A DNA stretch of 45,144 nucleotides. It comes from a virus. Lineage: Duplodnaviria > Heunggongvirae > Uroviricota > Caudoviricetes. The translations under genes and the position numbers were made by a program. Below the pieces are notes generated by a model, which was given only the letters and a program-made list of their open reading frames with translations, did not search any database and had not been told where the DNA came from. The DNA lies in IMG/VR virus record IMGVR_UViG_2851976983_000003; one strand, given 5' to 3'. Positions 1 through 40,069 of this stretch are shown in pieces. How positions within the stretch are numbered: position 1 is the stretch's first letter; each line of letters opens with the position of its first letter.

Positions 1-267
1 TTACTCTGCAGGTGAAGTCGGCCACTCAATATCAGGTGCGGTTGATGTATCAACACGGTTCAGCAACACCCGATACTTCTTCCAGGCTTCCAGCAACGAG
101 TTTTCTTCCTCCGTTGCGATCTCCAGATCTACAGCATCCTGAAGTGGCGCAATATGCTCACTGAATTCCTGGATGTAGAACTGTGTGGTGACGGTCTTCC
201 AGCCATTCGGCTCCTGCTGTATCGAAGCATACCAGGCTATTTCAATATCGCTATGCTGCGGCAGCAT
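1..267 (-). CDS. Tail fibre assembly (Tfa)-like protein, C-terminal-domain fragment; lacks the conserved Tfa N-terminus
   Basis: C-terminal ~40 aa ([29 protein letters not shown]) align with the C-termini of the full-length Tfa copies at 2519-3049 and 3078-3611; the upstream part is replaced by AT-rich DNA. Confidence 0.5.
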
Positions 268-30990: not shown

Positions 30991-31065
<75 letters not shown>

Positions 31066-31068
31066 ATA

Positions 31069-31144
<76 letters not shown>

Positions 31145-31146
31145 AC

Positions 31147-31223
31147 TGGACCGCCACCGGGGACTCGAACCTCGCACACTCAACTTAAAGGGTTGACGCT
31201 CTTTCCTGATGAACTGGTGACAG
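31147..31223 (-). tRNA. tRNA-like gene, atypical (anticodon loop CCUUUAA, nominal anticodon UUU; possibly degenerate)
   Basis: 77-nt foldable cloverleaf with encoded CCA, but two G-U pairs in the acceptor stem, C at position 8, C at position 33 and an A-C mismatch in the T stem. Confidence 0.45.
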
Positions 31224-31224
31224 T

Positions 31225-31300
31225 TGGTGGCCCTTGCTGGATTTGAACCAGCGACCTGGCGATTATGAGTCGCTCGCTCTCACCACTGAGCTAAAGGGCC
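31225..31300 (-). tRNA. tRNA-Ile2/Met-type (anticodon CAU; ileZ/ileX-like)
   Basis: 76-nt cloverleaf, acceptor ggccctt/aagggcc, anticodon loop ctcataa, T-loop ttcaaat, CCA. Confidence 0.8.
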
Positions 31301-31349: not shown

Positions 31350-32399
31350 TCAAACGATTAAATCCTGAACTTCCCTGACTGTCTGTTCAAAACGTCCTGT
31401 CTCCAGCTCAACACCAATCGCACAACGCCCCAGTGCCATCGCCGCTTTTACCGTTGAACCTGAACCCATAAAAAAATCTGCAACCAGGTCTCCCGGACGA
31501 CTGCTCGCGTTGATTATCTGCTGCAGCATTTCTGCCGGTTTTTCGCACGGATGTTTCCCTGGATAGTACTGCACCGGTTTATGCGTCCAGACATCGGTGT
31601 ACGGAACCTGCGCCGTCACACCGAAATACCGCCGCAAATTTTTATATTCACTCAGCAATTCCGTATACTGCCGGTTCAGCTCACTGTATGTGCTGACCAG
31701 CTGGTGGTGTGGTTTTTCCAGTTCCCCGCGCTGATGTTTTTCTGCCGCAACACGCGCAAACAACGCCTGCAATTTGTTGTAATCACCCTCGTTCGGTAAC
31801 TGCCACTGACTGGTACCAAACCAGTGCGAAGCCATGTTTTTCTTTCCGGTGGCTTCCGCTATCTGTTTTGACGTTATTCCCAGTGATTTACGCGCATCAC
31901 GAAAGTAAGAAATCAGCGGGGCCATGACGTGCTGTTTTAGCTCGCGCCCCTGTGCCACATAGCCATCATCTTTCGGGCGATACGGTCCCTGATAATGTTC
32001 TGCAAACAGAATGCGCTCTGTTGCCGGAAAATACGCCCGCAGACTTTCCTTATTGCACCCGTTCCAGCGTCCGGACGGCTTCGCCCAGATAATGTGGTTC
32101 AGCACATTAAAGCGCTCACGCATCATGATTTCGGTGTCAGATGCCAGGCGATGACCACAGAACAGGTAAAGACTTCCGGCAGGCTTCAGTACCCGCCAGA
32201 ACTGCGCCAGACACTGGTCCAGCCATTTCAGGTAATCATCGTCGCCCTCCCACTGGTTATCCCAGCCCTCGGGCTTCACTTTAAAGTATGGCGGGTCTGT
32301 GACTATCAGATCGACAGAGTTTTCCGGTAAGGTCTGGATAAATTTCAGGCAATCAGCGTTGATTAACTCACAACTGGATATTTTTACAGTATTAGTCAT
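31350..32399 (-). CDS. Orphan DNA methyltransferase (N6-adenine/N4-cytosine, DPPY motif)
   Basis: 349 aa; IVTDPPYF catalytic motif near the N-terminus and FMGSGST SAM-binding motif near the C-terminus; no adjacent restriction endonuclease gene. Confidence 0.85.
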   Translation of the reverse strand: MTNTVKISSCELINADCLKFIQTLPENSVDLIVTDPPYFKVKPEGWDNQWEGDDDYLKWLDQCLAQFWRVLKPAGSLYLFCGHRLASDTEIMMRERFNVLNHIIWAKPSGRWNGCNKESLRAYFPATERILFAEHYQGPYRPKDDGYVAQGRELKQHVMAPLISYFRDARKSLGITSKQIAEATGKKNMASHWFGTSQWQLPNEGDYNKLQALFARVAAEKHQRGELEKPHHQLVSTYSELNRQYTELLSEYKNLRRYFGVTAQVPYTDVWTHKPVQYYPGKHPCEKPAEMLQQIINASSRPGDLVADFFMGSGSTVKAAMALGRCAIGVELETGRFEQTVREVQDLIV

Positions 32400-32549
32400 A
32401 GATCAATAAGCACTTCTCTGATAGGCTCATACTGCTTTTGCGCAAAGCAGATGGGCCTGAGGTTTGCTTGTGACCCCAACGCATGAGCAGATGGCTGGCA
32501 GGTGCCGCTAACACCCACCAGCCGCCCATTACCACAAATTAAAAAGCCT

Positions 32550-32747
32550 TCACTGCAGAAGGCGTCTGTAACAACCGAACTGATAATCTGCCAGACCCGC
32601 CATAACAAGCTGGGTCAGGATTAACTGGCAGCGTTCGCGTGAAAGGTAAGTATTCTGCGCAATTTCCCCGACGGTCGCCGGTTCGGTGACGCTTAATTCA
32701 TTAAACACCACTCTGGCGGTTTCGGTCATATCCTGCTGTTTTAGCAT
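32550..32747 (-). CDS. Hypothetical small protein (possible winged-helix/HTH)
   Basis: Start placed at MLKQQDMTETARVVFNELSV…; short ORF upstream of the methyltransferase; function unknown. Confidence 0.35.
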   Translation of the reverse strand: MLKQQDMTETARVVFNELSVTEPATVGEIAQNTYLSRERCQLILTQLVMAGLADYQFGCYRRLLQ

Positions 32748-32966
32748 GTCTTTTTCCCTTTTCTGGTTAACGTGACATACCAATAACTCTTGTCTAAAAA
32801 GCCAGCAAGCTGAAAGACCGGTATTCGCAACCACCAGCGCGTTTAACGTACTGCATCAATTTTCGAGCATAAAAAGACCGCCTGAGGGCAGCCTTTTTAC
32901 ATTAAAATTAAGTTTTCTTTAACTATGTTGTATGTGAAATTAGCATTCCCTACTGAGTTTATACAA

Positions 32967-33710
32967 CTAATCTGACGTCACACGCACCATTATACTTACT
33001 AAAGAAAAGTCATCATCAGGTCCGGCTCTCTCTATACGACGCAAAATGCCATTAGAAAACTTCTGACTATTACTCATCGTATTTGATGTAAATCTGGGGC
33101 GTTTTTCCCAAACGTTATGAACCCCATCAGACATGATACACAGATGATATACCCCGTTAATACTAGGTAAATCTTTCCATGTGATAAAATCACAGTCGTA
33201 TTCCATATCAACATTTGAGGCTATAGCCGTCGTTAAGATATTTTTGCCCGGTTTATCCTTCAAATCTCTGGGTTTAAAAATATTCTGATCAATTAGCATC
33301 TGATGCCTGGTATCGTCCTTCGTCAATTGGTATGCTTTCTTCTCTCCAATGCAATACAAACGACAATCACCAATATGACCAATAATAATTCCGCTATCAC
33401 AAACATAACAAAACGTAAGTGTAGTAGCAGCTTTATCGAACTCATCATTAACATCAGCTAACGACATAACCTTTCGCTTAACTTCATCAAATACATCCGG
33501 AACTGTGTCAAAAGATAAGCTTGTCAATGCTGAAAGTTCAGCAATTGCCATTGATGAAGCCTGACTGGCACCAGTGTATGAACCTACACCATCAGCTACG
33601 GCAAATAAGATGCCATCCCCTACAATTTTGGGAGGAAGCAATGAATCTTCGTTGACCCTACCTGGTTCTTTTGGATACGAGAATGATGAAGTCGCTATCA
33701 GCTGAATCAT
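32967..33710 (-). CDS. PP2C-family Ser/Thr protein phosphatase
   Basis: 247 aa; PP2C motifs AVADGVGS, GDCRLY, SDGV and a C-terminal acidic DDD cluster; start ATG overlaps the kinase stop (ATGA). Confidence 0.8.
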   Translation of the reverse strand: MIQLIATSSFSYPKEPGRVNEDSLLPPKIVGDGILFAVADGVGSYTGASQASSMAIAELSALTSLSFDTVPDVFDEVKRKVMSLADVNDEFDKAATTLTFCYVCDSGIIIGHIGDCRLYCIGEKKAYQLTKDDTRHQMLIDQNIFKPRDLKDKPGKNILTTAIASNVDMEYDCDFITWKDLPSINGVYHLCIMSDGVHNVWEKRPRFTSNTMSNSQKFSNGILRRIERAGPDDDFSLVSIMVRVTSD

Positions 33711-34471
33711 GACTCACTCCTTAAAAAAGAATGCACAAAATCAAACGCCACATCATCTATTGTCTGATATCTATCATCTTTATCCATCCTGGTACACTTC
33801 GCTATGATAGGCTTTATTTTTTTATCATCTAAATTTAAGTCCTCAATTAACCGCCCCACCGCATAAACATCAGTCTTAACTGAATACTCGGCATTATATA
33901 AAATCTCGGGAGCCATATATCTTGTACTTCCCATACGGGTACCGATCTCGGTCAATTTAGTGGTATCCCCTTCGGGATTTGTATCTTTTACCAGACCAAA
34001 ATCAGACACCTTGTATGTTCCGTCGCTAAATCGCAAGACATTAAATGGTTTTATATCTCTGTGTAAATAGCCTTTCGCATGGATGTGAGCTACACCATCT
34101 AATACCATTTTCACTATTGAAATTTTTTGATCTGTTGTAAGAAGGTTGTTCGTTATTTCGTGCTCAAGATCACATTCTGCTTTATCCATAATGAACCATG
34201 GATTCTCGGCAAACAAATCGCACAAATAAATAGGAACAATATTGCTATGTACGCAATGTGATTGATACACGACCTCCCTTTTAAAACGCCTTCTAAACTG
34301 CTCTATTTGCGCCAAAAGCTCTGGTTTTTCGGGGGCTAAAACCTTTCTAGCATAATCCCCACATTCACCCTTGTTGAGGTTGTAAACCTTAACGTGTTCA
34401 ACAAAGCCAAATGCACCCCTTCCAATCAACTGAATTCGTTTTATAAAGTAATTACCGTGCTGTTCTTCCAT
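33707..34471 (-). CDS. Hanks-type (eukaryotic-like) Ser/Thr protein kinase
   Basis: Complete catalytic motif set: G-loop GRGAFG, lysine in YARKV, HRDIKPFN catalytic loop, DFG, APE (YMAPE), DVYAVG. Start placed at MEEQHGNYF; the ORF track starts 25 codons upstream. AT-rich. Confidence 0.85.
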   Translation of the reverse strand: MEEQHGNYFIKRIQLIGRGAFGFVEHVKVYNLNKGECGDYARKVLAPEKPELLAQIEQFRRRFKREVVYQSHCVHSNIVPIYLCDLFAENPWFIMDKAECDLEHEITNNLLTTDQKISIVKMVLDGVAHIHAKGYLHRDIKPFNVLRFSDGTYKVSDFGLVKDTNPEGDTTKLTEIGTRMGSTRYMAPEILYNAEYSVKTDVYAVGRLIEDLNLDDKKIKPIIAKCTRMDKDDRYQTIDDVAFDFVHSFLRSES

Positions 34472-34544
34472 TAAGCTCACCGACCTAAATTGTAAGAATA
34501 TCCATATCTTACAACTACAGATAAAAAGGTCCACAGAGTTAAGC

Positions 34545-34569
34545 AAAAAACCCGCATTTAAGCGGGTTT
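34545..34569 (-). terminator. Rho-independent terminator just downstream of the Q-like gene (tR'-like candidate)
   Basis: Minus strand aaacccgc-ttaaat-gcgggttt followed by TTTTGCTT. Confidence 0.55.
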
Positions 34570-37299: not shown

Positions 37300-37692
37300 C
37301 TACTGCCCTGTTTTAACGAAGTTTTTAAAGGAAACAACTGCCTGATAGGGGTTTGGTTGACAGCCAAACATATTATCGCAAAAAGGCTTGATGAAAATTC
37401 TTGAGGATCCATCTTCATTTGGCATTTTACTCACTTGATAAGCGAGGAATGGACTATTTGGAGAGGGATTATAAGTGGAAATTAGCGTGTCTGTCGCCGT
37501 TTGAATTTTCCATGAGGAATTATTAGCCAACCAGAATTGCGCTCGTTTCCAATAAAAGTCACATTGCTTTTCATCATTACATGTTAGTGGCTTCATTGCT
37601 TCTGCTTTCAACGCTGGATCGACCTTTGCTGCACACCCTCCCAACATTACTGTTGCAATCATTACACCTGCGACTAAAACAAGTTTCTTCAT
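37300..37692 (-). CDS. Putative lipoprotein (moron, AT-rich)
   Basis: 130 aa; signal peptide with lipobox MLGGC (MKKLVLVAGVMIATVMLGGCAAK); several Cys in the mature part. Confidence 0.6.
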   Translation of the reverse strand: MKKLVLVAGVMIATVMLGGCAAKVDPALKAEAMKPLTCNDEKQCDFYWKRAQFWLANNSSWKIQTATDTLISTYNPSPNSPFLAYQVSKMPNEDGSSRIFIKPFCDNMFGCQPNPYQAVVSFKNFVKTGQ

Positions 37693-37753
37693 ATCCCTGT
37701 GAACCGCCCCGGAAATCCTGGAGACTAAACTCCCTGAGAAAGAGGTAAACAGG

Positions 37754-38080
37754 ATGACTAAAAATACTCGTTTTTCCCCCGAAGTCCGTCAGCGGGCGAT
37801 TCGTATGGTTCTGGAAAGTCAGGATGAATATGACTCACAGTGGGCGGCAATTTGTTCCATTGCCCCAAAGATTGGCTGTACGCCGGAGACTCTGCGTGTC
37901 TGGGTTCGCCAGCATGAGCGGGATACCGGGGGCGGTGATGGTGGGCTCACCAGCGCTGAACGTCAGCGTCTGAAAGAGCTGGAACGTGAAAATCGTGAAC
38001 TGCGCCGCAGTAACGATATCCTTCGCCAGGCTTCCGCTTATTTTGCGAAGGCGGAGTTCGACCGCCTCTGGAAAAAATGA
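37754..38080 (+). CDS. IS3-family transposase OrfA (HTH/leucine zipper)
   Basis: 108 aa, [50 protein letters not shown]…. Confidence 0.9.
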
Positions 38081-38967
38081 TGCCACTGCTGGATAAGCTG
38101 CGTGAGCAGTACGGGGTCGGACCGGTATGCAGCGAACTGCATATTGCCCCGTCAACGTATTACCATTGTCAGCAACAGCGACATCATCCGGATAAACGCA
38201 GTGCCCGTGCGCAGCACGACGACTGGCTGAAGAGAGAGATACAGCGCGTATACGATGAAAATCATCAGGTGTACGGTGTGCGTAAAGTCTGGCGTCAGTT
38301 GTTACGGGAAGGAATCAGGGTGGCCAGATGTACAGTGGCACGTCTCATGGCGGTTATGGGACTTGCCGGTGTTCTCCGGGGTAAAAAGGTCCGTACGACC
38401 ATCAGCCGGAAAGCCGTTGCCGCAGGCGACCGCGTAAACCGTCAGTTCGTGGCAGAACGACCTGACCAGCTGTGGGTGGCTGATTTTACTTACGTCAGCA
38501 CATGGCAGGGCTTCGTCTATGTGGCGTTTATCATTGATGTGTTTGCCGGATACATCGTGGGGTGGCGGGTCTCATCGTCTATGGAAACGACATTCGTGCT
38601 GGATGCGCTGGAGCAGGCGTTGTGGGCCCGTCGTCCGTCTGGCACCATCCATCACAGCGATAAAGGCTCTCAGTATGTGTCACTGGCCTATACGGAGCGA
38701 CTAAAAGAAGCCGGATTACTGGCATCAACAGGGAGTACAGGCGACTCGTATGACAACGCGATGGCTGAGAGCATCAATGGTCTTTACAAAGCGGAGGTAA
38801 TACACCGTAAGAGCTGGAAAAACCGTGCAGAAGTGGAACTGGCCACACTAACGTGGGTGGACTGGTATAACAATCGACGATTGCTGGGAAGGCTGGGCCA
38901 TACTCCTCCGGCAGAAGCAGAAAAAGCTTATTATGCTTCCATCGGAAACGATGATCTGGCAGCCTGA
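38077..38967 (+). CDS. IS3-family transposase OrfB (DDE integrase core)
   Basis: 296 aa with DDE/rve-type core (…WVADFTYV…HHSDKGSQY…DNAMAES…); overlaps orfA. Confidence 0.9.
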
Positions 38968-39149
38968 GTTCACAGATAAAACACTCTCCAGGAAACCCGG
39001 GGCGGTTCACTGCCCCATCAATAAAAGTTCGGTTCTCTAATAACTAGAGTTAATCAACGAAAAAAAACGCCGAAGCGGGTTAAGTGCGGGTGCGTTGAGG
39101 ATGCCTGACTCATCAGAGGTGGCGAGGGATTTCTCCCTCACCTGGTCTC

Positions 39150-39305
39150 TTACTCCTCAGGTTCGTAAGCTGTGAAGACAGCGACCTCCGTCTGGCCGGT
39201 TCGGATTCGTACCTCGCAGAGGTCTTTCCTCGTTACCAGTGCCGTCACTATGACGGTTAAACAGATGACGATCAGGGCGATTAACATCGCCTTTTGCTGC
39301 TTCAT
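39150..39305 (-). CDS. hok: Hok/Gef-family type I toxin (HokD-like)
   Basis: 51 aa MKQQKAMLIALIVICLTVIVTALVTRKDLCEVRIRTGQTEVAVFTAYEPEE, a canonical Hok sequence; the in-frame upstream extension in the ORF track (39150-39362) could be a mok-like leader frame. Confidence 0.85.
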   Translation of the reverse strand: MKQQKAMLIALIVICLTVIVTALVTRKDLCEVRIRTGQTEVAVFTAYEPEE

Positions 39306-39595
39306 AGCCTGCTTCTCCTTGCCTTTCGGCACGTAAGAGGCTAACCTAGATTTGCCGTTCATAGATTGAGCCTCAGATTAATGTTAAGCGTCTTGCAGGA
39401 CGCGTAATGTTAACTGGGGCTTTTCTCTATCTGCCTTTGGTGTTCATGCCTGAGACAGATAGCCTCAAGCACCCGCAGCAATTCTACTTAACTCCCCTTT
39501 CACTGCAAACCGTTTTTATCCCCAGCGGCAAATCGAATACACAACAAGTGCTACCGCCATTGCAATTCCTGTCGTTGTGAATGCCTCCGGCCAGG

Positions 39596-40069
39596 TCATC
39601 GTAAAACATCCTCCGCGCTTATCAGCCCATTCCGCTCCAGATACCCCATCGCCATATCCGGTAATTTGCAATCTGGTTTCGCTTTTTTCAACTGACTTAC
39701 CAATTGTTTAACCAGCATTGTCAACTCTTCCTCATGTGAAAGTGATGCCGGTTGCGCAGCGTACAGGGGTTTTGGCGCAATGGCTGAGTGTTTTGCGTAT
39801 GCCGCAACAGATTCAGCATTGAACAAAACCATATTGTGAGCACAGGACCATGCAACTGGCATTGCTTCAAGTGAGGCAAGCGCAATACGGGCAAGCTCAA
39901 GATCCATTTCAATGGCAACTCTTGAAGTCTTAAACACGGTCTGTCGCGCAGCAAATTTCATGGATTTCACACTTTCATTAGCATGAGCAATCAATTGCTC
40001 TCTGGTAAATTTCGTCATATTTTTCTCATCCAGTCCTGTCGCTATGCCTGCGCAACCATTACCCCACAA
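39596..40069 (-). CDS. Hypothetical prophage protein
   Basis: 157-aa ORF (possible start at MTKFTREQ…) in the nin-equivalent region; no motif recognised. Confidence 0.4.
   Translation of the reverse strand: MWGNGCAGIATGLDEKNMTKFTREQLIAHANESVKSMKFAARQTVFKTSRVAIEMDLELARIALASLEAMPVAWSCAHNMVLFNAESVAAYAKHSAIAPKPLYAAQPASLSHEEELTMLVKQLVSQLKKAKPDCKLPDMAMGYLERNGLISAEDVLR

What the first reader, a model, noticed from the sequence alone, without database searches (positions are those of the whole stretch)
39150..39480. Stand-alone hok-family type I toxin locus in the nin region; antisense sok-like RNA not annotated
The 51-aa Hok ORF is canonical and has an in-frame or overlapping upstream leader frame (mok-like). 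A sok-like antisense RNA with its promoter is expected on the opposite strand near the 5' leader (roughly 39300-39420) but cannot be confirmed by eye. An IS629 copy lies about 140 bp downstream of the hok stop and could affect the 3' processing region of hok mRNA.
Basis: partly seen in the sequence, partly recalled or inferred. Interest (0 to 1): 0.4.

Follow-up and report, generated by a model that had tools for sequence, protein, structure and literature searches.

The report
Intact prophage hok/sok toxin-antitoxin locus
This is an ordinary, complete copy of the well-known hok/mok/sok RNA-controlled toxin-antitoxin module in a lambdoid prophage, with its antisense Sok gene present though unannotated, and the nearby IS629 leaves all of its parts untouched.

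Summary
On the minus strand lie a 51-aa Hok ORF (39305..39150; Pfam HOK_GEF, 3e-23) and an in-frame 70-aa mok ORF (39362..39150). Hok is the same protein as E. coli HokD/RelF. The leader matches Rfam RF01794 at 110 bits (gathering score 59).

The expected antisense gene is there. By alignment to the annotated sokW of phage 933W, a 71-nt Sok RNA maps to 39354-39424 (+). It has a 14-nt free 5' tail over the mok start and a -30 kcal/mol hairpin followed by a U tract. Its promoter (TTGCCT, 17 nt, TAACCT; 39319-39347) is identical to the sokW promoter, which has been shown experimentally to be needed for antitoxin activity.

The predicted 414-nt hok mRNA folds end to end (tac-fbi). When truncated in silico it switches to the tac-ucb "open" form. 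30 homologues keep this fold.

IS629 (37700-39009, CAG duplication) sits 50 nt beyond the hok U-run. An IS-free allele shows that nothing in the hok locus was interrupted.

One real 3' oddity is independent of the IS: the terminator stem carries GG>UU (-3.1 vs -11.8 kcal/mol).

Verdict: already known, low interest. A side observation is a diversity hotspot at the Sok 5' tail.

The parts
39481..39509 (-). hok promoter-like site: -35 TTTGCA (39509-39504), 17-nt spacer, -10 TAGAAT (39486-39481). The predicted +1 is G39474, 7 nt downstream.
   Evidence: This is the only sigma-70-like site called in 38950-39650. The Rfam leader model starts at 39474. The site is conserved in 933W and 689R5.
39060..39474 (-). 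Predicted full-length hok mRNA of about 414 nt. The 3' end is inferred from the U-run and has not been mapped.
   Evidence: MFE -160.3 kcal/mol, z = -7.2 against shuffles. In 30 homologues, 87.6% of cells stay paired, against 37-44% for slid controls. 35 pairs show compensatory changes, and 0 of 500 shuffles reach that.
39463..39474 (-). tac (translational activator) element GGGUGCUUGAGG at the mRNA 5' end.
   Evidence: It pairs with nt 375-387 in the full-length MFE, P(unpaired) 0.01. It is nearly invariant across homologues.
39446..39472 (-). Metastable 5' hairpin: tac nt 3-13 pair with nt 19-29 immediately downstream.
   Evidence: This is the RNAalifold consensus for the 30 homologues. Pair types vary at two pairs (for example GU 13 / GC 13 / AU 4). 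It matches the nascent-transcript structure described for R1 hok (PMC9841398).
39416..39422 (-). ucb (anti-SD) box AAGCCCC, mRNA nt 53-59.
   Evidence: In the full-length fold, nt 54-57 pair with the mok SD region (nt 103-106). In 3'-truncated RNA of 372 nt or less, nt 53-59 pair with tac nt 1-8.
39371..39374 (-). mok Shine-Dalgarno sequence GAGG (mRNA nt 101-104).
   Evidence: Read directly from the sequence. It is invariant in 30 homologues. It pairs with ucb in the full-length fold and with dcb in the truncated fold.
39150..39362 (-). mok ORF, 70 aa, in frame with hok and ending at the same stop codon.
   Evidence: The equivalent ORF is annotated as mokW in 933W.
39337..39342 (-). dcb box AGCCUC (mRNA nt 133-138). 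It pairs with the mok SD region to form the Sok-target hairpin.
   Evidence: Seen in the truncated-RNA MFE and in the Rfam consensus helix. Columns 109-113 with 144-148 are conserved in 30 of 30 homologues.
39315..39320 (-). hok Shine-Dalgarno sequence AAGGAG, 9 nt upstream of the hok AUG.
   Evidence: Read directly from the sequence. Homology with K-12 hokD starts here.
39150..39305 (-). hok toxin CDS, 51 aa plus stop. The protein is identical to HokD/RelF (WP_000813254.1).
   Evidence: Pfam PF01848. The RefSeq annotation of the identical record gives the same accession as K-12-type Qin hokD.
39121..39142 (-). Stable 3'-UTR hairpin GGUGAGGGA/UCCCUCGCC. It is the likely protective 3' end of the processed mRNA.
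   Evidence: Helices 15-16 are 96-97% paired with compensatory changes. The role is inferred from R1 (PMC9841398).
39088..39100 (-). fbi (fold-back inhibition) element CCUCAACGCACCC, which pairs with tac.
   Evidence: The helix is 94.9% paired in 30 homologues, with a G-C to A-U double change in 4 Kluyvera loci.
39060..39079 (-). Weakened terminator: CCCGCUUCGGCG followed by U8. The stem is cut to 3 bp by a GG>UU change.
   Evidence: -3.1 kcal/mol here, against -11.8 for the family form CCCGCUUCGGCGGG. The weakened form occurs in 4 of 75 loci, including the IS-free L003, L090 and L132.
39319..39347 (+). sok promoter: -35 TTGCCT (39319-39324), 17-nt spacer, -10 TAACCT (39342-39347).
   Evidence: It is identical to 933W/Sp5 sokW. 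Mutagenic primer YO-421 in PMC8621323 replaces exactly this TAACCT, and the mutant loses antitoxin activity. The generic scan did not call it, since the -10 matches only 3 of 6.
39354..39424 (+). Predicted Sok antisense RNA, 71 nt. Its parts are a 5' single-stranded tail (39354-39367, covering the mok AUG), a hairpin (39368-39420) and a U tract.
   Evidence: Mapped from the sokW misc_RNA of AF125520 through alignment A1. The fold gives -30 kcal/mol, z = -5.6, and has the same shape as SokW. The complementary helix has 7 pairs with double changes and only 1 pair that varies on one side.
37700..39009 (+). IS629/IS1203 copy of 1310 bp, flanked by a 3-bp target duplication (CAG on the minus strand: 37697-37699 and 39010-39012). 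It is a neighbour, not part of the module.
   Evidence: Inverted repeats, the ALIL frameshift pseudoknot, rve transposase domains and the empty site in L003. This junction is present in only 4 of 5426 complete E. coli genomes.

Best explanation
The locus is a complete hokD/hokW-type hok/mok/sok type I toxin-antitoxin module in the nin-equivalent region of a lambdoid prophage.

Shown from the sequence:
- a promoter-like site and a leader on the minus strand;
- mok and hok in one reading frame;
- a convergent antisense gene (Sok, 39354-39424 +) whose 14-nt free 5' tail and hairpin are complementary to the mok Shine-Dalgarno and start region;
- 5' tac and 3' fbi boxes that pair in the predicted full-length mRNA.

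Inferred from the R1 and Sp5 paradigms:
- The stable full-length hok mRNA is closed by tac-fbi, with the mok SD held by ucb, so it is neither translated nor bound by Sok.
- Slow 3' trimming removes fbi. tac then pairs with ucb, and the mok SD moves into the dcb target hairpin.
- The abundant but short-lived Sok pairs there, blocks mok translation (and with it the coupled hok translation), and the duplex is cut by RNase III.
- When Sok supply stops, Mok and Hok are translated and Hok depolarises the inner membrane. In Sp5 this happens on prophage induction.

The most likely role is the one measured for hokW-sokW: helping host killing and lysis, and so phage release, after induction. Prophage retention and exclusion of other phages are alternative roles.

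IS629 is a bystander. It inserted 50 nt past the hok U-run and 7 nt upstream of the next gene's ATG.
For: Identity of the parts:
- Pfam HOK_GEF 3e-23.
- Rfam leader model 110 bits against a gathering score of 59.
- The Hok protein has the same accession as HokD.
- 90.6% nucleotide identity to 933W mokW/hokW/sokW over 522 nt, with the sok promoter and Sok hairpin identical or nearly so.

Experimental support from the homologue: hokW-sokW is a working type I TA system. Both RNAs were seen on Northern blots, a sok -10 mutant is toxic, and HokW is made on induction (PMC8621323).

Fold:
- The full-length MFE pairs nt 1-12 with nt 375-387, z = -7.2.
- Truncation to 372 nt or less switches tac to ucb and the SD to dcb. 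This is the switch described for R1 (PMC9841398).
- The fold is kept in 30 homologues from Escherichia, Kluyvera, Erwinia and other genera: 87.6% paired, 35 compensatory pairs, 0 of 500 shuffles as high, slid controls about 40%.
- RNAalifold recovers the metastable 5' hairpin.

IS629: the empty-site allele and the CAG duplication show that the hok locus was not interrupted.
Against: - No transcript data exist for this strain. The Sok start, the hok mRNA ends and the 3' processing are all inferred.
- The generic promoter scan does not call the sok promoter (the -10 TAACCT matches 3 of 6), and it calls neither terminator.
- The hok terminator stem is degraded in this lineage (-3.1 vs -11.8 kcal/mol), and the 3' tail alone folds no better than shuffles. 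Termination and mRNA half-life may therefore differ from the paradigm.
- Chromosomal hok loci tested earlier did not mediate post-segregational killing (cited in preprint 10.1101/2025.08.07.668861).
- tac is nearly invariant, so tac-fbi covariation rests on one double change.
Confidence: 0.88

Rival explanations
1. The locus is a decaying relic. All boxes look intact, but the module no longer kills or regulates, as reported for the chromosomal hok loci of E. coli K-12. Here the cause would be the weakened terminator: the hok mRNA would be read through or unstable, and no stable toxin-mRNA reservoir would form.
For: - The GG>UU change in the terminator stem lowers it from -11.8 to -3.1 kcal/mol and is found in only 4 of 75 loci.
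- The 3' tail folds no better than shuffles.
- Earlier work found that chromosomal hokA, hokB and hokC could not mediate post-segregational killing.
- From my own knowledge, not checked here: Pedersen & Gerdes 1999 attributed the inactivation of K-12 hok loci to nearby IS elements, point mutations and rearrangement.
Against: - The Hok ORF, mok, both SDs, tac, ucb, dcb, fbi, the 3' protective hairpin and the sok promoter are all intact, and they are identical or nearly identical to the functional hokW-sokW.
- These elements have very low diversity, pi 0.01-0.04, which implies purifying selection.
- HokD-type peptides are toxic when expressed.
- The same terminator variant is carried by isolated phage genomes such as vB_EcoS-689R5.
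Confidence: 0.12
2. IS629 has altered the module. It could do so by removing or changing the 3' processing region, or by sending transposase-strand transcripts (plus strand) convergently into the hok 3' UTR as an extra antisense RNA.
For: - The IS ends 140 nt after the hok stop codon. Its transposase strand points toward hok, and no plus-strand terminator is visible between 39010 and 39150.
- With a weak hok terminator, hok transcripts could run into the IS.
Against: - The insertion point is 50 nt past the U-run and 78 nt past fbi.
- The 50 nt between the U-run and the IS match the IS-free allele, and a clean 3-bp duplication marks a simple insertion.
- tac-fbi pairing and the protective hairpin are unchanged.
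- Read-out from the IS is speculation and was not tested.
Confidence: 0.04
3. The mechanism is the same but the biological role differs. The module would act mainly as a prophage-retention (addiction) device, or as an abortive-infection or exclusion device against other phages, and not as a lysis helper.
For: - R1 hok/sok reduces T4 plating, and TA loci are known to stabilise mobile elements.
- hok genes are about four-fold enriched in prophages.
Against: - The only direct test of a prophage hok/sok locus (Sp5) found no growth phenotype in the lysogen. It found earlier growth arrest and about two-fold more released phage when the locus was present.
- No enrichment of hok next to defence systems was found.
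Confidence: 0.3

Closest known systems
hokW-mokW-sokW of Stx2 phages 933W / Sp5 (AF125520; Takada et al. 2021, PMC8621323)
   Same: - 90.6% nucleotide identity over 522 nt, running from the small upstream ORF through fbi.
- Identical sok promoter hexamers and spacing.
- Same 71-nt Sok architecture: a 14-nt tail plus a 53-nt hairpin, with one loop difference.
- Same mok/hok in-frame layout.
   Different: - The Sok 5' tail and mok codons 2-5 differ: GCCGUUCAUAG here, GUUCAGCAUGG in SokW.
- Hok differs at a few C-terminal residues.
- In 933W the locus lies at the far right end of the prophage, next to a large tail-fibre-like gene, not in the nin region.
- Homology stops right after fbi, so the terminators are unrelated.
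hokD (relF) of the Qin cryptic prophage, E. coli K-12
   Same: - Identical Hok protein, WP_000813254.1.
- Same 3' UTR with fbi, 97% identity.
- Same neighbourhood on the Q side: DUF968/ydfU, then the antiterminator.
   Different: - In K-12, homology starts only at the hok SD (window 39319). The hok promoter, tac, ucb, the mok start, the Sok gene and the sok promoter are replaced by relBE.
- The window carries the full stand-alone form.
hok/sok of plasmid R1 (the paradigm)
   Same: - Same set of elements: tac/fbi, ucb/dcb, a metastable 5' hairpin, mok-hok coupling, and Sok with a free 5' tail and a terminator hairpin.
- Same predicted closed-to-open switch on 3' truncation.
   Different: - Hok shares only about 44% amino-acid identity (the figure given for HokW against R1 Hok).
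- The Sok hairpin carries an extra GC-rich tip of about 18 nt relative to the Rfam consensus.
- The sok -10 is TAACCT; from my memory of the R1 sequence it is TATCCT there.
- The setting is a prophage, not a plasmid.
K-12 chromosomal hokA/hokC/hokE loci with IS150/IS186 nearby (Pedersen & Gerdes 1999; cited from my own knowledge, the paper was not retrievable here)
   Same: An IS element sits just downstream of a hok gene.
   Different: In those loci the IS is reported to lie close enough to inactivate the locus. Here the IS is beyond fbi and the U-run, and an IS-free allele shows that no regulatory element was lost.

Membership tests
hok/sok (Hok/Gef) type I toxin-antitoxin | Small (about 50 aa) hydrophobic Hok/Gef toxin ORF | tested here: met
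   PF01848 E=3e-23, 81.6 bits against a cut-off of 22, covering model positions 1-42 of 42. The protein is identical to HokD, WP_000813254.1.
hok/sok (Hok/Gef) type I toxin-antitoxin | mok reading frame that starts upstream with its own SD and overlaps hok | tested here: met
   A 70-aa in-frame ORF starts at 39362, with GAGG 8 nt upstream. Translational coupling itself cannot be tested here.
hok/sok (Hok/Gef) type I toxin-antitoxin | cis-encoded antisense Sok gene (promoter, free 5' tail, terminator hairpin) complementary to the mok initiation region | tested here: met
   Maps to 39354-39424 (+) through the 933W sokW annotation. The fold gives -30 kcal/mol, z = -5.6. The promoter is identical to the experimentally mutated sokW promoter. 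The generic scan missed it.
hok/sok (Hok/Gef) type I toxin-antitoxin | Sok RNA is actually transcribed and is unstable | not testable with these tools
   Shown only for the homologue sokW, by Northern blot (PMC8621323).
hok/sok (Hok/Gef) type I toxin-antitoxin | Long-range tac (5' end) to fbi (3' end) pairing in the full-length mRNA | tested here: met
   12 bp in the MFE, P(unpaired) 0.01. fbi is found 45-56 nt after the stop codon in most of the 30 homologues examined. The helix is 94.9% paired, with one G-C to A-U double change.
hok/sok (Hok/Gef) type I toxin-antitoxin | Closed-to-open switch: ucb holds the mok SD in full-length RNA; tac-ucb and SD-dcb form after 3' truncation | tested here: met
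   The in-silico MFE switches at a length of 372 nt or less. It matches the Rfam consensus helices and the R1 model. This is a prediction only.
hok/sok (Hok/Gef) type I toxin-antitoxin | Metastable 5' hairpin that sequesters tac in the nascent transcript | tested here: met
   RNAalifold consensus, columns 9-19 with 25-35, with variable pair types.
hok/sok (Hok/Gef) type I toxin-antitoxin | Efficient intrinsic terminator just after fbi, defining a stable full-length mRNA | tested here: inconclusive
   A U8 run is present, but the stem is only 3 bp (-3.1 kcal/mol), against 7 bp (-11.8) in 71 of 75 related loci. It is not called by the terminator scan.
hok/sok (Hok/Gef) type I toxin-antitoxin | Slow 3' exonucleolytic processing, RNase III cleavage of the duplex, and membrane killing | not testable with these tools
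   Known for R1 and in part for hokW.
relBEF-type hokD (K-12 Qin) | hok lies directly behind relBE, without its own leader, mok or Sok | tested here: not met
   The window has the full leader. Its upstream neighbours are a DUF4406 gene and a hypothetical ORF, not relBE. K-12-type homology starts at 39319.
IS629/IS1203 (IS3 family) | About 1.3 kb, terminal inverted repeats, 3-bp target duplication, orfA/orfB with a frameshift pseudoknot, DDE (rve) transposase | tested here: met
   1310 bp, 37700-39009. Inverted repeats, CAG duplication, ALIL pseudoknot at 121.5 bits, rve domains, and a RefSeq annotation as IS1203 family.

The most novel reading that the evidence does not exclude
The 12-16 nt just after the mok AUG form both the Sok 5' tail and the loop of its target hairpin. 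They may act as a rapidly diversifying address code that keeps the several hok/sok copies carried by co-resident prophages from cross-neutralising each other.

- In 69 unique loci at least 85% identical to this one, nucleotide diversity there is about 0.36. In the adjacent promoter, SD, tac, ucb and fbi boxes it is 0.01-0.04.
- There are 14 variants, and the window carries a minority one (7 of 69).
- In the four genomes sampled with more than one leader-bearing copy, every copy had a different variant.

A second reading that is not excluded: the weakened terminator of this lineage deliberately lets hok transcription run on into the downstream lipoprotein gene, and IS629 now cuts that link.
Probability: 0.3. 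Interest if true: 0.4.

Novelty: already known. Interest (0 to 1): 0.12.

Why it matters
The finding adds little new biology. hok/sok modules occur in most E. coli genomes: 4941 of 5426 complete genomes have a match to this 511-nt segment. They are known to be enriched in prophages, and a 91%-identical prophage copy has already been characterised experimentally (PMC8621323).

The practical value is for annotation.
- RefSeq marks only the hokD CDS, so mok and the Sok antitoxin RNA go unannotated.
- The Rfam family named "sok" matches the hok-sense leader, not the antisense RNA, which can mislead strand assignment.
- An IS element next to a hok gene does not by itself mean the locus is inactivated.

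If the module behaves like hokW-sokW, it would modestly speed host killing and raise phage release when this prophage is induced.

Tried and rejected
- **Generic promoter and terminator scan.** It found the hok promoter. It missed the sok promoter, the Sok terminator and the hok terminator. The Sok assignment therefore rests on homology to sokW and on folding, not on the scan.
- **tac-fbi covariation by cognate versus non-cognate duplex energies.** There was no discrimination (-19.7 vs -19.5 kcal/mol) because tac is almost invariant. Only the Kluyvera G-C to A-U change is informative.
- **IS629 as a disruptor.** Rejected after finding the empty site and the target duplication.
- **Folding of the 3' tail alone.** It is no better than shuffles, so the 3' end cannot be fixed by structure.
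- **YUNR U-turn motif in the predicted target loop, checked by eye.** The loop ACGGCAAA of this variant has none. The commonest variant also seems to lack one, so the check was not informative and was dropped.
- **Paper search for the K-12 IS186/IS150-hok story.** It returned nothing usable, so that comparison is cited from memory only.
- **Is the Rfam hit the antisense RNA?** No. It lies on the hok strand and ends in the hok SD and AUG.

Full report
**Observation.**
- A 51-aa ORF (39305..39150) reads MKQQKAMLIALIVICLTVIVTALVTRKDLCEVRIRTGQTEVAVFTAYEPEE.
- It is extended in frame to 70 aa from an ATG at 39362, which has GAGG 8 nt upstream.
- The 70-aa product matches Pfam HOK_GEF at E=3e-23.
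- The leader 39474..39300 matches Rfam RF01794 at 110 bits, against a gathering score of 59.
- The IS element ends at 39009, exactly 140 nt after the hok stop codon.
- The window is 100% identical over 8.5 kb to E. coli strain 503025 (NZ_CP025892). RefSeq there annotates only a hokD CDS, with no mok and no Sok.

**Context.** The gene order, read in the direction of hok transcription, is: YdaT-like gene, HTH_36 replication initiator, DnaC-like ATPase, DUF977, DUF4406, a hypothetical ORF, hok, IS629, a lipoprotein-like ORF, a hypothetical ORF, DUF968, RusA, Q. This is the nin-equivalent segment of a lambdoid prophage.

It parallels the Qin prophage of K-12, where hokD is followed by rem, a hypothetical gene, ydfU and the antiterminator. 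There, however, hokD sits behind relBE, and homology to the window begins only at the hok Shine-Dalgarno sequence (window 39319). The Hok protein accession is the same in both records. The window therefore carries the full, stand-alone form of the hokD-type locus.

**The antisense gene.**
- A caution about the Rfam hit: it lies on the hok strand and its consensus ends in the hok SD and AUG. It therefore documents the hok leader, not the antisense RNA.
- The antisense gene was located through phage 933W, whose record annotates sokW (71 nt), mokW and hokW.
- 933W and the window share 90.6% identity over 522 nt. Projecting sokW through alignment A1 gives window 39354-39424 on the plus strand.
- That RNA folds into a 14-nt unpaired 5' tail, a 53-nt hairpin and a U tract (-30 kcal/mol, z = -5.6). 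The shape is the same as SokW.
- The tail is complementary to the mok AUG and the first mok codons. The hairpin is complementary to the mok SD.
- Upstream lie TTGCCT (39319-39324), a 17-nt spacer and TAACCT (39342-39347). This stretch is identical in 933W.
- In Takada et al. 2021, the "promoter-less" sokW construct was made with a primer that replaces exactly this TAACCT. That construct became toxic and was rescued by sokW in trans. [quoted passage not shown]
- The generic promoter scan did not call this site, because the -10 matches the consensus at only 3 of 6 positions. The assignment therefore rests on homology to a tested promoter, not on consensus strength.

**The hok mRNA.**
- The only sigma-70-like site called in the region is TTTGCA-17-TAGAAT (39509-39481, minus strand). 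It places +1 at G39474, where the Rfam model starts.
- Folding 39474..39061 gives -160.3 kcal/mol (z = -7.2). Nt 1-12 (GGGUGCUUGAGG, tac) pair with nt 375-387 (CCUCAACGCACCC, fbi; 39088-39100), and nt 54-57 (ucb) pair with the mok SD region.
- Shortening the RNA in silico to 372 nt or less removes fbi, and the minimum-energy fold switches. tac pairs with ucb (nt 53-59), and the mok SD (nt 101-106) pairs with AGCCUC (dcb, nt 133-138) to form the target hairpin.
- This is the closed-to-open switch described for R1 hok mRNA (PMC9841398), and it equals the Rfam consensus structure.
- RNAalifold on 30 non-redundant homologues from Escherichia, Kluyvera, Pseudocitrobacter, Erwinia and other genera picks out the third known partner of tac, the metastable hairpin immediately downstream.
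- Projecting the window's full-length fold onto those 30 sequences, 87.6% of cells stay paired, against 37-44% when partners are slid by 1-3 columns.
- In the same test, 35 pairs show compensatory double changes, against 10-19 in the slid controls, and 0 of 500 shuffles reach that number.
- The tac-fbi helix is 94.9% paired, with one G-C to A-U double change in four Kluyvera loci. Because tac is almost invariant, covariation for that helix alone is thin.
- The helix that is the hok-sense complement of the Sok hairpin has 7 pairs with double changes and only 1 pair that varies on one side only. That pattern is what one expects if both strands must fold. This last point is an inference.

**IS629.**
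- The element spans 37700-39009 (1310 bp). It has terminal inverted repeats, an ALIL frameshift pseudoknot and rve transposase domains.
- Phage vB_EcoS-689R5 carries the same locus without the IS. Its sequence reads ...GATGGGGCAGGGAGATGAAG..., while the window reads ...GATGGGGCAG[IS629]CAGGGATATGAAG... This is a simple insertion with a 3-bp CAG duplication.
- The insertion point is 50 nt past the hok U-run, 78 nt past fbi, and 7 nt upstream of the ATG of the next gene, a lipoprotein-like ORF at 37692..37300.
- No hok, mok or sok element is touched.
- This junction occurs in only 4 of 5426 complete E. coli genomes. The hok segment itself is matched in 4941 of them.

**A real 3' peculiarity.** In 71 of 75 related loci, the sequence after fbi ends in ACCCGCUUCGGCGGGU plus a U run (-11.8 kcal/mol). 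In the window and three IS-free relatives (L003, L090, L132) it reads ...GCGUU..., which leaves a 3-bp stem (-3.1 kcal/mol) before U8. On its own the 3' tail folds no better than shuffled sequence. The exact 3' end, the termination efficiency and the mRNA half-life therefore cannot be inferred. This is the main uncertainty about whether the locus behaves like the paradigm. It is independent of IS629.

**Mechanism and role.**
- *Shown here:* the genes, signals and complementarities, and the predicted folds with their conservation.
- *Inferred from R1 and Sp5:* stable closed hok mRNA; slow 3' trimming; refolding; Sok binding, RNase III cleavage and a block of mok and hence hok translation; Hok synthesis and membrane damage once the short-lived Sok is no longer replenished.
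- *Role:* for the Sp5 homologue, Sok disappears after mitomycin C, HokW appears about an hour before the endolysin, and deleting the locus halves phage release. I take that as the most likely role here. Prophage retention or exclusion of other phages are alternatives.

**Comparison and novelty.** The locus meets every sequence-level criterion of the hok/sok family that I could test. The exception is a strong terminator, where the result is inconclusive. It is not the relBEF form of hokD. It differs from hokW-sokW in the Sok 5' tail, in the terminator and in its position within the prophage. None of this lies outside what is already described, since surveys report Hok in about 80% of Enterobacteriaceae genomes and a four-fold enrichment in prophages. 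The verdict is already known, with low interest.

**Side observations.**
- The segment right after the mok AUG, which is both the Sok 5' tail and the target loop, is a diversity hotspot among otherwise near-identical loci. Nucleotide diversity is about 0.36, against 0.01-0.04 in neighbouring regulatory boxes, with 14 variants among 69 sequences. Copies that share a genome carried different variants in the four genomes sampled. One caveat applies: the viral loci were selected for 100% Hok identity, so the very low CDS diversity is biased. The non-coding flanks are the fair comparison.
- The TACGAA motif at Tyr47 is invariant in all 30 homologues. This fits the reported TadA A-to-I recoding of hok mRNAs.

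Noticed in passing
window 39347-39362 (mRNA nt 113-128; Sok 5' tail and mok codons 1-5): This segment is a diversity hotspot. Nucleotide diversity is about 0.36, against 0.01-0.04 in the adjacent tac, ucb, promoter, SD and fbi boxes. There are 14 variants among 69 unique loci at least 85% identical to this one, and the window's variant ATGAACGGCAAATCTA is a minority (7 of 69). Copies that share a genome differed in every one of the four genomes sampled. It may insulate co-resident hok/sok copies from cross-talk.
   Followed up: partly
window 39060-39079 (-): The hok terminator stem carries GG>UU relative to the family consensus (CCCGCUUCGGCGUU against CCCGCUUCGGCGGG), giving -3.1 against -11.8 kcal/mol. 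The change occurs in only 4 of 75 loci and is also present in IS-free alleles, so it predates the IS629 insertion.
   Followed up: partly
window 39516-39599 (-): An unannotated 27-aa hydrophobic ORF, MTWPEAFTTTGIAMAVALVVYSICRWG. Its ATG overlaps the stop codon of the upstream ORF (ATGA). Homology with phage 933W begins exactly at this ATG, so the ORF may travel together with the hok cassette. It is found upstream of hok in 26 of 136 fetched loci, mostly intact and frameshifted in a few. It has no Pfam match.
   Followed up: partly
window 39164-39167 (-); alignment A2 columns 320-325: The Tyr47 codon TAC followed by G (UACG, inside TACGAA) is invariant in all 30 homologues. This is the motif reported for TadA A-to-I editing that recodes Tyr to Cys in hokB, hokC, hokD and hokE mRNAs (preprint 10.1101/2025.08.07.668861).
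   Followed up: no
window 39300-39474 (-): Rfam family RF01794, named "sok antitoxin", matches the hok-sense strand, and its consensus ends in the hok SD and AUG. It models the hok mRNA leader in its open fold, not the Sok RNA. Strand calls taken from it would place Sok on the wrong strand.
   Followed up: yes
window 37300-37692 (-) and 37697-37699: IS629 inserted 7 nt upstream of the ATG of a lipoprotein-like 130-aa ORF (MKKLVLVAGVMIATVMLGGC...; no Pfam match). This separates that gene, and the DUF968-RusA-Q genes beyond it, from upstream early-rightward transcription. A polar effect on Q expression and on prophage inducibility is possible but was not tested.
   Followed up: no
window 31350-34546 (-): Between Q and the tRNA cluster lie a eukaryote-like Ser/Thr protein kinase (33707-34546), a PP2C phosphatase (32967-33710) and an N6/N4 DNA methylase (31350-32399). 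These look like a kinase/phosphatase moron pair of the kind known from 933W-like phages.
   Followed up: no
window 30991-31300 (-): Three phage-borne tRNA genes, Met(CAT), Thr(TGT) and Gly(TCC), lie downstream of Q.
   Followed up: no
window 41-244 (-): A match to Rfam IS009 (RF02111) at 129 bits, against a gathering score of 117, at the far left of the window. It is unrelated to the hok locus.
   Followed up: no
L001 (933W) 1925-1990, compared with window 39060-39078: Homology between the window and 933W hokW stops immediately after fbi. 933W has no counterpart of the CCCGCUUCGG terminator there, so different hok cassettes carry different 3' ends.
   Followed up: no
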